From IMG/VR virus record IMGVR_UViG_3300029762_000052: a stretch of DNA of 8,212 nt. The stretch is one strand, 5' to 3'. The DNA comes from a virus (taxonomy: Duplodnaviria > Heunggongvirae > Uroviricota > Caudoviricetes). The notes beneath the pieces were generated by a model. It worked only from the letters and a program-made list of their open reading frames with translations. It had not been told where the DNA came from and did no database searches. This document shows, one piece after another, positions 2,330 to 4,267 of this stretch. Position 1 is the first letter of the stretch. Each line of letters begins with the position of its first letter. Position numbers and translations under genes: made by a program.

Positions 2330-4267
2330 TCAGCCGCCGGACACACTGCCGTAGTTCACTCCGGTGATCACCGCCACCGCCGCGGTACGGCGACGACGCC
2401 AGTTGATCCAGCGCTCCGCACGGATGGCCACACTGCCTGTCTGGAACATGGAAACCAGCTCCACCGGCGACGGCGTGGTACTGTCGCCGGTCGGCTCAGA
2501 CTGCATTTCCAGTGATGCCTCGCGGGACATATCCACTGCCACGCCGCCGTCATCCGCCAGATAAATATCCGGGGCATTCACCAGCACCAGCTGGTCACCC
2601 ACGTACTGGGAGACAATCACCGGCAGCCCCTGGAAGGAGCCACCCAGCAGGGTCATGTCCGGGTATTCTTTCTGACCCAGCGCATTTTTACGCATGGACA
2701 GCGCCAGAGCATTGGTGCTGGACATCAGCCAGACCGCACCGGTGGGCTGCAGGTTTGCTGCCACAAACTGTCCAAACGCAGCCTCTGCATCCGCATCCGG
2801 GTTACCGCTTGATGCCGTGCCCTTCACATCATGGGTGATGGACGCCGGGGAGACATCTGCCACCGCCGCTTTTTTCGGGTCCACAAAGTCTGTATCCAGA
2901 CGCGCCACCACCGCTTCCGCCAGCGCATTACGGACCAGTGCATCAGCAGCCGGACTGGAAAAACGGATCAATTCTTCCGTCAGTACCGCAATGGCCGACA
3001 CCTTCGCATGACTGAAGGTGATGGATTCAAAATCAAACTTCGTCAGGGGTTTTGCCTTACCCTCACCCACCCAGCCGGCAGCACCGCCGGACACCTGGGC
3101 GTGCACACGGATATTGAACGGCACCTGACGAAGTGCAGGGATCCCGCCCTGACCAAATCGCCCGATAATGGTCTGAGGACGCAGGTAATCAATAAAGTCC
3201 TGTGCGTATTCCTGATATTCAGACAGGCTGCCTGCCCACTGCGGATCCGTGGTGGTCCCCGCGCCCACTGCCGATTTCAGGACATGATGCAGACGACTGT
3301 CATCCGGATACTGACGACGGGCCACTTCCAGGGCTTCAGAGCGGACACCTTTAGCCGCAGCCAGTGATTTGGCAAAACGTGCGAAACCAATCCCCTTATC
3401 CAGTTTCTGCTCCACACGGATCACCGGCGCAGAAGCCACCGCGGCCACATTCCCGTTACCGGCCTGTTTCACCGGCTGCGCCGTGGCGGCCTTACCGGCT
3501 TCCAGTTCACGCAGGCGCTTCAGGTGCGCATCCACCTGACGGATTTCCGCTGCGGTGTTGTCGTAATGCTCTTCCTCCTCCACATCCAGCGTGCGCCCTT
3601 CCTCTGCGGCTTTGGTCATGACCTCCTCAAGGGAGGCTGCCAGCGCTGCACGCTTGTTTTCAAAACTTTTAATCTGTTCGCCAATATTCATTATGGTCTT
3701 TTCCTTATGAAAAACGGTTGTTGACTGTGCCGCAGCGCCGGCAGAAGATGCGATTTTCACCACCGGTTTCCGGTTGCCGGACGCGGCAGAAAACGGGCGG
3801 TCGTAAGATTTAATGGTCCGGATAGTGCATTCCGCATTCGCGGGCACGGTGACGGCAGACACCTCCATCAGCTCCCAGCGCAGAAAATGCAGTCCGCCTC
3901 CGTCCAGAAAGGTGTATTCATGGGGACGGAAGCCCACGGACAGCCCCCTGACCAGCCCGGTCTTAATGGCCGCCCAGACCTCATCCAGCCGGGCAGCCAG
4001 TTGCGACGGCATATCCGGTACGGGTTTCACCAGTGTTGCCGTGATTTCCAGCCCTTCGCTGACCCGGCGCACCGTACACTGCCCCACCGGGCGGGAATGG
4101 TCATGCTGCCAGAGAAACGGGATCGCACTGCCAAACTCCGCGCCCTCCGGCTCCAGGATGTCACCATCCCGATCCGGAGAAGGCGTTGACGCAATCCCGG
4201 TGATCACCCGCTCATCCTCACTGAAGGATTTCACCGTCAGCAGGGAGCAGGCCCGTTTAAGAGTCAC
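2330..4267 (-). CDS. Prohead protease / scaffold (delta-like coiled coil) / HK97-fold major capsid protein fusion
   Basis: The N-terminal ~160 aa carry an HK97-type prohead protease signature (ITGIASTPSPDRDGDILEPEGAEF … MEVSAVTVPANAECTI). The middle is a charged coiled-coil-like stretch (MNIGEQIKSFENKRAALAASLEEVMTKAAEEGRTLDVEEEEHYDNTAAEIRQVDAHLKRLRELE). The C-terminal ~330 aa look like an HK97-family capsid protein (GAGTTTDPQWAGS…, …GSFQGLPVIVSQYV…). Start is GTG at 4267 with AGGAGG 5 nt upstream. Confidence 0.85.
   Translation of the reverse strand: MTLKRACSLLTVKSFSEDERVITGIASTPSPDRDGDILEPEGAEFGSAIPFLWQHDHSRPVGQCTVRRVSEGLEITATLVKPVPDMPSQLAARLDEVWAAIKTGLVRGLSVGFRPHEYTFLDGGGLHFLRWELMEVSAVTVPANAECTIRTIKSYDRPFSAASGNRKPVVKIASSAGAAAQSTTVFHKEKTIMNIGEQIKSFENKRAALAASLEEVMTKAAEEGRTLDVEEEEHYDNTAAEIRQVDAHLKRLRELEAGKAATAQPVKQAGNGNVAAVASAPVIRVEQKLDKGIGFARFAKSLAAAKGVRSEALEVARRQYPDDSRLHHVLKSAVGAGTTTDPQWAGSLSEYQEYAQDFIDYLRPQTIIGRFGQGGIPALRQVPFNIRVHAQVSGGAAGWVGEGKAKPLTKFDFESITFSHAKVSAIAVLTEELIRFSSPAADALVRNALAEAVVARLDTDFVDPKKAAVADVSPASITHDVKGTASSGNPDADAEAAFGQFVAANLQPTGAVWLMSSTNALALSMRKNALGQKEYPDMTLLGGSFQGLPVIVSQYVGDQLVLVNAPDIYLADDGGVAVDMSREASLEMQSEPTGDSTTPSPVELVSMFQTGSVAIRAERWINWRRRRTAAVAVITGVNYGSVSGG

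What the first reader, a model, noticed from the sequence alone, without database searches (positions are those of the whole stretch)
2330..4267. Single ORF fusing prohead protease, scaffold-like coiled coil and major capsid protein, with an internal RBS and ATG
The protease domain reads straight through into a complete capsid protein that begins with its own Met (MNIGEQIKSF…, ATG at 3691..3689) preceded in-frame by AAGGAA about 10 nt upstream. This suggests a fusion arising from loss of a protease stop codon, possibly still giving two products: the full fusion, and a delta-capsid protein by internal initiation. The ratio of the two would set how many protease copies enter each prohead.
Basis: partly seen in the sequence, partly recalled or inferred. 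Interest (0 to 1): 0.5.

Follow-up and report, generated by a model that had tools for sequence, protein, structure and literature searches.

The report
Protease–capsid fusion gene with nested start
This is the known fused "prohead protease / major capsid protein" head gene of Shiga-toxin-type E. coli prophages, and comparison with about 100 relatives shows that the start signals inside it are kept by selection, so it very probably makes both a protease-carrying and a plain capsid subunit.

Summary
The ORF 2330..4267 (-), 645 aa, encodes an HK97-type (S78) prohead protease, a disordered linker, a delta-like coiled coil and an HK97-fold capsid protein. An in-frame ATG (3691..3689) follows AAGGAA (3706..3701).

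It is not an error or a recent accident. The same ORF is 98.9-99.5% identical in BP-4795, 2851, 1717 and other Stx phages, where it is annotated "major head protein/prohead protease". It lies in about 850 complete E. coli genomes and stays one ORF in relatives down to about 38% identity.

The new part is comparative. In 98 fused sequences the junction codon is always ATG or GTG. A Shine-Dalgarno-like motif precedes it in 93% of viral loci, against 15% for other in-frame ATGs. The motif sits in different codon registers inside a hypervariable linker, in one of the least structured stretches of the gene.

Unfused relatives are scattered among fused ones. Two differ by a single in-frame stop just before that ATG.

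Best reading: two co-terminal products of 69 and 48 kDa, as with lambda C/Nu3, so that only some subunits carry protease. No protein data exist, and the product ratio is unknown. The fusion is known; the nested start appears unreported.

The parts
2330..4267 (-). Full-length ORF, 645 aa, 69.1 kDa: protease - linker - delta-like coiled coil - HK97-fold capsid protein. GTG start; the stop codon is included in the coordinates.
   Evidence: It is 98.9-99.5% identical to ORF56 of BP-4795 and to homologues in phages 2851, 1717 and YYZ-2008.
4273..4278 (-). Shine-Dalgarno AGGAGG of the full-length product, 5 nt before GTG 4267.
   Evidence: Duplex energy with the 16S 3' end is -10.3 kcal/mol. Conserved (A/T)GGAGG in enterobacterial relatives.
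3809..4216 (-). Prohead protease domain (aa 18-153), Peptidase S78 / HK97 type. His55 codon is 4105..4103 and Ser110 codon is 3940..3938.
   Evidence: Pfam PF04586, TIGR01543, PHROG 80, AF2 pLDDT about 90. H55 and S110 are invariant in alignments A1 and A2.
3692..3808 (-). Disordered, hypervariable linker (aa 154-192) that contains the internal ribosome-binding site.
   Evidence: AF2 pLDDT below 50 for aa 154-191. It is the most variable stretch of the alignments, with indels.
3701..3706 (-). Internal Shine-Dalgarno-like AAGGAA, with a 9-nt spacer to the ATG.
   Evidence: duplex -6.2 kcal/mol. An equivalent motif is present in 20 of 20 genome loci and 93% of 76 viral loci, in different codon registers.
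3689..3691 (-). Internal in-frame start codon ATG (Met193).
   Evidence: Invariant in A1. The junction codon is ATG or GTG in all 98 fused sequences. It is homologous to the start codon of the separate capsid genes in unfused relatives.
2330..3691 (-). Inferred nested ORF: delta-domain plus capsid protein, 453 aa, 48.2 kDa, co-terminal with the full-length product.
   Evidence: Inference. Mass. No protein-level evidence.
3485..3685 (-). Delta-/scaffold-like antiparallel helical hairpin (aa 195-261).
   Evidence: AF2 helices 195-223 and 229-261, pLDDT about 90. The TIGR01554 match begins at aa 204.
3392..3484 (-). Variable, partly disordered segment (aa 262-292). This is the inferred region of the maturation cleavage that removes the delta domain.
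   Evidence: pLDDT below 50 for aa 267-283; variable in A1. The cleavage site itself is an inference by analogy with HK97.
2333..3391 (-). Capsid shell part (aa 293-645): N-terminal helices followed by the HK97 fold.
   Evidence: PF05065. Foldseek matches to Bxb1, HK97, D3 and T5 capsid proteins, probability 1.0, E 2e-15 to 1e-9.
4289..4306 (-). Terminator-like hairpin followed by a T-run, between terL and the fusion gene. It is a conserved neighbour; its role in expression of the gene is unknown.

Best explanation
The ORF is the conserved three-part head gene of BP-4795-like lambdoid (Stx-type) prophages. It encodes an HK97-type serine prohead protease, a flexible linker, a delta-domain-like coiled coil that acts as built-in scaffold, and an HK97-fold major capsid protein.

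It is most likely translated from two starts in the same frame:
- GTG 4267 gives the 69-kDa protease-delta-capsid protein.
- ATG 3691, with its own Shine-Dalgarno motif in an open, A/T-rich stretch, gives a 48-kDa delta-capsid protein.

Inferred mechanism, by analogy with HK97 and with lambda C/Nu3:
1. Both products co-assemble into the procapsid through their identical capsid parts.
2. The protease is thereby carried inside as an N-terminal extension on a fraction of the subunits.
3. After assembly it cuts away linker and delta domains, including its own tether.
4. The relative strength of the two starts sets the protease dose.

Shown here: the ORF, the domains, the disordered linker, and the conservation of the start signals. 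Inferred: the second product, co-assembly, the cleavages and the dose control.
For: 1.

2. The gene is real and old.
- 116 phage records cover at least 80% of the protein, 91 of them at 95% identity or more.
- 850 of 5426 complete E. coli genomes hold at least 80% of the window.
- It is one ORF of 644-648 aa at 73-78% identity across Enterobacterales.
- Most of the best 150 representatives of 50%-identity clusters are full-length fusions at 38-54% identity.

3. The start codon is kept.
- Met193 is invariant next to the most variable segment.
- 117 of 128 distant fusions have Met at the junction, and 8 of the other 11 have Val or Leu there.
- At DNA level, 20 of 20 genome loci have ATG and L020 has GTG. 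Of the viral loci, 72 have ATG and 4 have GTG.

4. The SD motif is kept at nucleotide level, not at amino-acid level.
- Mean duplex energy is -8.4 kcal/mol, and 93% reach -4.3 or better, against 14.8% of 1116 other in-frame ATGs.
- The motif sits in different codon registers: AAG GAA, AAA GGA, GAG GGC, AGG AGA, AGG AGC.
- It survives removal of redundancy: 42 of 47 clusters at 70% identity and 25 of 25 at 60%.

5. The mRNA context is open. The junction window is among the least structured 5% of its own gene in 44 of 97 sequences, and among the lowest-GC 5% in 53 of 97. GC3 is lower just downstream, a weaker signal.

6. In unfused relatives the separate capsid gene starts at exactly the homologous codon. 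In L051 and L058 a single in-frame stop lies directly before it.

7. Each unfused locus has a fused locus as its nearest relative, at 58-73% capsid identity, implying at least 5 independent switches. A switch from fused to split by a stop codon is viable only if the internal start already works.
Against: - There is no protein-level or ribosome-profiling evidence for the 48-kDa product. I found no paper that tested it.
- The internal SD in this window (AAGGAA, -6.2) is weaker than the upstream one (AGGAGG, -10.3). Ribosomes translating the protease part could occlude it.
- Low GC and low structure at the junction are partly a by-product of a Lys/Asn/Thr-rich linker. The purely synonymous signal (GC3) is modest: 23 of 97 sequences fall in the lowest decile.
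- If fusions arose many times and recently from split genes, some start signals could be relics.
- Other SD-like spots are also conserved in the gene, though they lie on conserved Gly/Glu residues and lack a conserved ATG.
Confidence: 0.75

Rival explanations
1. Only the full-length fusion is made. Every capsid subunit brings its own protease, and the internal ATG and SD are leftovers of an ancestral two-gene arrangement with no present function.
For: - The upstream start has the stronger SD.
- The fusion is one uninterrupted ORF everywhere.
- No second product has been reported in the papers I could search.
- Unfused relatives exist, so an ancestral separate start is plausible.
Against: - A relic should decay in a linker that is otherwise hypervariable and full of indels.
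- Instead the start codon is present in 98 of 98 fused sequences, and replacements are only GTG.
- The SD is kept in 25 of 25 clusters at 60% identity and shifts codon register.
- The site stays unstructured.
Confidence: 0.12
2. The SD-like motif is a programmed translational pause that gives the protease domain time to fold before the coiled coil emerges. It does not start translation.
For: The motif lies right after the protease domain, at a domain boundary. SD-like sequences inside genes have been proposed to slow ribosomes (my own knowledge; the idea is disputed).
Against: - A pause does not need a start codon 5-9 nt downstream, yet ATG or GTG is universal.
- It does not explain why the split relatives start their capsid gene at this very codon.
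Confidence: 0.05
3. The fusion is an artefact: a sequencing or assembly error, or a recent pseudogenising loss of the protease stop codon in this genome.
For: One related locus (L019, Arsenophonus endosymbiont) is indeed broken into pieces.
Against: - The identical architecture occurs in independently sequenced phages and hundreds of complete genomes.
- It also occurs in dozens of genera and in metagenomic viral contigs.
Confidence: 0.01

Closest known systems
ORF56 of Enterobacteria phage BP-4795 and its homologues in phages 2851, 1717, YYZ-2008, JLK-2012 and Stx1a/Stx2 prophages ('putative major head protein/prohead protease'); PHROG 617
   Same: It is the same gene. Protein identity is 98.9-99.5%, with the same neighbours: HNH, terS, terL, fusion gene, 73-aa ORF, portal. 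The PHROG 617 profile covers the whole fusion, E 1e-261.
   Different: Nothing of substance. Those records annotate one CDS only, with no nested product.
[quoted passage not shown] 2010, Virology 402:355; cited in PMC8538268 and PMC12315714)
   Same: One ORF with the order protease - middle scaffold-like part - major capsid protein, in a lambdoid prophage.
   Different: - The Gifsy-2 protease is ClpP-type (PF00574) and its capsid part is PF25209.
- There is no detectable sequence similarity to this protein (BLASTP E 0.15).
- The gene order differs: the portal gene lies upstream in Gifsy-2 and downstream here.
- I could not read that paper, so I do not know whether it considered an internal start. 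Gifsy-2 has a candidate one at M221 with GAGGAG upstream (untested).
HK97 gp4 (protease) and gp5 (delta domain + capsid protein)
   Same: The protease family is the same (S78) and the capsid fold is the same, with an N-terminal coiled-coil delta domain fused to the capsid protein. Unfused relatives of this gene have exactly the HK97 two-gene layout.
   Different: Here the two genes are joined in frame through a 38-residue disordered linker. In HK97 the protease is targeted non-covalently by its C-terminal tail (my own knowledge of Duda et al. 2013, which is not held). The TIGR01543 score is below its equivalog cut-off, 46.5 against 59.
Nested in-frame head genes: lambda C / Nu3 (Shaw & Murialdo 1980, Nature 283:30, cited in PMC8508860). 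From my own knowledge also Mu I/Z and herpesvirus UL26/UL26.5.
   Same: A long product carries the protease, and a shorter co-terminal product is made from an internal in-frame start. The ratio of the starts gives few proteases among many scaffold copies (for the citation; the mechanism is from my own knowledge).
   Different: In those systems the shared part is a scaffold only, and the capsid protein is a separate gene. Here the shared part would be the scaffold-like domain plus the whole capsid subunit. The second product is inferred here, not demonstrated.
[quoted passage not shown]
   Same: The same kind of fusion. [quoted passage not shown]
   Different: It is a different lineage. This protein scores 54 bits against the NF045541 cut-off of 525, and matches only over aa 48-287.

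Membership tests
Peptidase S78 (HK97-type prohead protease; PF04586) | Profile match above the curated cut-off | tested here: met
   PF04586: 34.7 bits against a cut-off of 21, aa 48-152. PHROG 80 'head maturation protease', E 1.9e-41.
Peptidase S78 (HK97-type prohead protease; PF04586) | Equivalog-level match to HK97 gp4 (TIGR01543) | tested here: not met
   46.5 bits against a cut-off of 59. It is a family member at domain level, but not a gp4 equivalog by NCBI's threshold.
Peptidase S78 (HK97-type prohead protease; PF04586) | Conserved catalytic His and Ser | tested here: met
   H55 and S110 (in the GLSVGF motif) are invariant in A1 (19 sequences) and A2 (36 sequences, mean column identity 42%). 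That these are the catalytic residues rests on my own knowledge of the family.
Peptidase S78 (HK97-type prohead protease; PF04586) | Protease fold and proteolytic activity | not tested
   Foldseek with the whole model listed only capsid hits among the best 50 matches. No model of the domain alone was searched. Activity needs experiment.
HK97-fold major capsid protein with delta domain (PF05065, TIGR01554) | Profile match above the curated cut-offs | tested here: met
   PF05065: 52.5 against 24.2. TIGR01554: 77.3 against 27.5, aa 204-584.
HK97-fold major capsid protein with delta domain (PF05065, TIGR01554) | HK97 fold | tested here: met
   Foldseek probability 1.0 to Bxb1 (9d9x, E 2e-15), HK97 (1ohg, 2ft1, 8fqk), D3 and T5 capsid proteins.
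HK97-fold major capsid protein with delta domain (PF05065, TIGR01554) | N-terminal coiled-coil delta domain that is removed on maturation | tested here: inconclusive
   A helical hairpin at aa 195-261, followed by a disordered stretch, is predicted with high confidence. Removal by cleavage cannot be tested here.
NCBIfam NF045541 'prohead protease/major capsid protein fusion protein' | Score above the family cut-off over the full length | tested here: not met
   54 bits against a cut-off of 525; match over aa 48-287 only.
Gifsy-2-type tripartite capsid gene | Protease, scaffold-like part and capsid protein in one ORF, in that order | tested here: met
Gifsy-2-type tripartite capsid gene | ClpP-type protease and sequence homology to the Gifsy-2 protein | tested here: not met
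   Gifsy-2 has PF00574 plus PF25209. BLASTP between the two proteins gives E 0.15.
Nested co-terminal head genes (lambda C/Nu3 type) | In-frame internal start codon with a ribosome-binding site, conserved among relatives | tested here: met
Nested co-terminal head genes (lambda C/Nu3 type) | Second, shorter protein actually made and needed for assembly | not testable with these tools
   Needs Western blot, N-terminal mass spectrometry, start-site profiling and mutants.

The most novel reading that the evidence does not exclude
A whole, very large family of HK97-like phages and prophages uses a 'nested capsid gene'. The family has thousands of protein clusters across Proteobacteria, including the long-tailed Stx phages of E. 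coli. In this reading the bulk capsid subunit comes from a conserved internal start. The full-length protein is a minor, dose-limited vehicle that delivers the protease covalently. Single stop codons toggle lineages between fused and split layouts without loss of function. As far as I could search, this has not been described for these fusions, and current annotation misses the nested product in every genome.
Probability: 0.45. Interest if true: 0.55.

Novelty: new member of a known kind. Interest (0 to 1): 0.4.

Why it matters
- If the internal start works, it shows how these phages limit the number of protease molecules per procapsid without a separate targeting signal. The dose would be set by two ribosome-binding sites in one gene.
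- It would explain why lineages can switch between fused and split genes by a single stop codon.
- It would add a missing protein to the annotation of about a thousand E. coli genomes and many phages, including Shiga-toxin phages.
- It suggests a simple design for loading cargo into HK97-type shells at a tunable ratio.
- If the internal start does not work, the gene is an ordinary, already annotated fusion.

Tried and rejected
What led nowhere:
- The three most relevant papers are not held, so I could not check what they say about fusions or internal starts. They are Effantin 2010 on Gifsy-2, Duda 2013 on the HK97 protease, and Oh 2014 on the delta domain.
- Literature searches for an internal start in protease-capsid fusions, or for work on the BP-4795 head, gave only annotations and unrelated papers.
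- The PDB sequence search gave only a weak capsid hit, 9d9w, E 0.0017.
- Foldseek with the full model listed only capsid proteins among its best 50 matches, so the protease fold was not tested by structure.
- One PHROGs call failed on a wrongly framed query, and one MAFFT run timed out. Both were repeated.
- The GC3 test at synonymous sites gave only a modest signal.

What I considered and rejected:
- Sequencing error or recent stop loss.
- Membership of NF045541.
- Homology with the Gifsy-2 gene.
- The idea that an ATG with an SD motif in this one sequence is significant on its own: 5 of 11 internal in-frame ATGs have an SD-like motif.
- Met217 as an alternative start. It has GAGGAG upstream, but lies in a structured stretch inside a helix and is not conserved in distant relatives.
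Full report
**What is there**

The window is the head-gene module of a lambdoid E. coli prophage, read on the minus strand. In order it holds:
- an HNH endonuclease (6835..7200);
- the small terminase (5989..6546);
- the large terminase (4331..5992);
- the ORF in question (2330..4267);
- a 73-aa ORF (2064..2285);
- the portal gene (754..2118);
- a repeat-containing gene that runs off the left end.

The ORF is 645 aa and starts with GTG 4267, behind AGGAGG.

**Domains**

- Pfam finds Peptidase_S78 at aa 48-152 and Phage_capsid at aa 386-635. 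NCBIfam finds the HK97 capsid model over aa 204-584.
- PHROG 617, a 626-position 'major head protein' profile, covers the whole protein.
- An AlphaFold model built on 36 diverse relatives (mean pLDDT 78.7) shows these parts:
  - a confident protease domain (18-153);
  - a disordered linker (154-191);
  - a confident antiparallel helical hairpin (195-261);
  - a second disordered stretch (267-283);
  - helices 293-370 followed by the capsid fold.
- The capsid part matches the Bxb1, HK97, D3 and T5 capsid proteins at probability 1.0.
- Met193 sits exactly where the linker ends and the first helix begins.
- His55 and Ser110 are invariant in both alignments.

**It is a real, old and already annotated gene**

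- The protein is 98.9-99.5% identical to proteins of phages JLK-2012, 2851, YYZ-2008, 1717 and BP-4795. There it is annotated 'putative major head protein/prohead protease'.
- At least 80% of the window is present in 850 of 5426 complete E. coli genomes. PGAP calls the gene 'phage major capsid protein'.
- At 73-78% identity it is still one ORF of 644-648 aa. This holds in Salmonella, Enterobacter, Klebsiella, Serratia, Kosakonia, Pantoea and others.
- A scan of 1.84 billion cluster representatives gave 1191 hits at E of 1e-30 or better. Most of the best 150 are full-length fusions of 630-680 aa at 38-54% identity.
- Read error and recent stop loss are therefore excluded.
- Protease-capsid fusions as a kind are well known. 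[quoted passage not shown]
- This protein belongs to neither lineage. The Gifsy-2 gene has a ClpP protease and no detectable similarity to it. NF045541 is missed by a wide margin.

**The internal start: the test**

Taken alone, an ATG with an SD-like motif means little. Five of the eleven internal in-frame ATGs of this ORF have one. I therefore asked whether relatives keep the signals.

1. Start codon, protein level.
   - In the enterobacterial alignment, aa 165-192 form the most variable stretch, with indels, yet Met193-Asn194 are invariant.
   - Among 128 distant full-length fusions, each from a different 50%-identity cluster, 117 have Met within 8 residues before the conserved Glu197.
   - Eight of the other eleven have Val or Leu at that place.

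2. Start codon and SD, DNA level.
   - 20 fused loci from reference genomes (34-77% identity) all have ATG preceded by AAGGA, AAGGG, GAGG or CAGGA. The Reyranella locus has GTG behind AAGGAGG.
   - Of 80 viral contigs at 40-72% identity, 76 carry one ORF. Their junction codon is ATG in 72 and GTG in 4.
   - The 14 nt upstream pair with the 16S 3' end at a mean of -8.4 kcal/mol.
   - 93% reach -4.3 or better, against 14.8% of 1116 other in-frame ATGs in the same genes.
   - The motif occupies different codon registers and so encodes different residues: AAG GAA (K-E), AAA GGA (K-G), GAG GGC (E-G), AGG AGA (R-R), AGG AGC (R-S). This points to selection on the RNA, not on the protein.
   - After collapsing relatives, 42 of 47 clusters at 70% capsid identity and 25 of 25 at 60% keep the motif.

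3. mRNA context.
   - In the window, the 50 nt around the ATG fold at -3.5 kcal/mol against a gene mean of -14.3, with GC of 30% against 60%.
   - Over 97 fused sequences, 44 place the junction among the least structured 5% of their own gene.
   - The synonymous-only measure (GC3) is lower too, but modestly so.

4. Control. Other SD-like spots are conserved in the gene, but they lie on conserved Gly/Glu residues, and none is followed by a conserved start codon.

**Split relatives**

- Seven loci have separate protease and capsid genes: Acidovorax, two Snodgrassella, and four viral contigs.
- In all of them the capsid gene starts at the codon homologous to Met193.
- Stand-alone capsid proteins in the representative library likewise begin at query residues 193-196.
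- In L051 the protease ORF ends with TAA directly followed by the in-frame ATG. In L058 the sequence is TAG ATC ATG, also in frame. Fused and split layouts can therefore differ by one stop codon.
- The split loci do not group together. The nearest capsid relative of each is a fused locus, at 58-73% identity, so there were at least five independent switches.
- With the fused state in the large majority, at least some switches probably went from fused to split. That is viable only if the internal start already functions. This step is inference, because no rooted tree was built.

**How it most likely works**

- Two co-terminal proteins are made: 69.1 kDa from GTG 4267 and 48.2 kDa from ATG 3691 (masses).
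- Both assemble through the same capsid part. The coiled coil plays the scaffold role of the HK97 delta domain.
- The protease rides in on a subset of subunits. After assembly it removes linker and delta domains.
- This is the logic of lambda C/Nu3 (citation), extended so that the shared part includes the capsid protein itself.
- The domains and signals are shown here. The second product, the co-assembly, the cleavage sites and the dose control are inferred.
- The upstream SD is the stronger of the two in this window (-10.3 against -6.2), so the ratio cannot be guessed from sequence.

**Rivals**

- A relic start with only the full-length product made (about 0.12). It is hard to square with universal retention in a hypervariable linker.
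- A translational pause site (about 0.05). It does not need a start codon.
- An artefact (about 0.01). It is refuted by the breadth of occurrence.

**Verdict**

- The fusion is already known and annotated.
- The conserved nested start is, within the limits of the library I could search, unreported for this family. I could not read the key Gifsy-2 and HK97 papers.
- I rate it a new member of a known kind, with moderate interest. It offers a clear, cheap experiment.

Noticed in passing
window 4289..4306 (-), with the T-run to about 4280: A terminator-like hairpin plus T-run lies in the 63-nt gap between the terL stop and the SD of the fusion gene. It is present in all enterobacterial relatives (CCCGC-loop-GCGGG TTTTTT). 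The stem sequence differs but still pairs in the Burkholderiaceae (L022) and Phlomobacter (L026) loci. Its role inside a late operon is unknown.
   Followed up: partly
window 1..757 (-): The gene after the portal gene starts at ATG 757..755, in an ATGA overlap with the portal stop. It contains a 162-nt (54-aa) tandem repeat, at least 3.7 copies at 92% identity, and runs off the window. An 859-position PHROG 'portal protein' profile covers it at positions 455-706. PGAP annotates portal plus this ORF as one 'frameshifted' portal pseudogene in NZ_CP027449. The same module may therefore hold a second fused/split polymorphism, or a programmed frameshift.
   Followed up: partly
window 754..5992 (-): The gene order is terL, protease/capsid, 73-aa ORF, portal. 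The HK97 order is terL, portal, protease, capsid. The 73-aa ORF (2064..2285, PHROG 829, function unknown) overlaps the annotated portal start by 55 nt. Similar small ORFs follow the capsid gene in the Snodgrassella and Acidovorax loci.
   Followed up: partly
L110 (Gifsy-2, NC_010393) 22471..24561: The non-homologous Gifsy-2 ClpP-scaffold-capsid gene has an in-frame ATG (Met221) with GAGGAG upstream, just after the Clp domain. It could be a Nu3-like internal start. I did not check its conservation.
   Followed up: no
window 7182..7915: The right end drops to 43-47% GC. It carries a small lipoprotein-like TonB C-terminal-domain ORF (7574..7915, -) and a YlcI/YnfO (DUF3950) ORF (7182..7442, +). 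They look like accessory 'moron' genes between the lysis and packaging modules.
   Followed up: no
L019 (Arsenophonus endosymbiont) 4001..5919: The homologous fusion gene is broken into several short ORFs, as expected for a decaying prophage in an endosymbiont.
   Followed up: no
window 3619..3617 (-), Met217: A second in-frame ATG has GAGGAG upstream (-8.1 kcal/mol). It lies in a structured stretch inside the first delta helix and is not conserved in distant relatives.
   Followed up: partly
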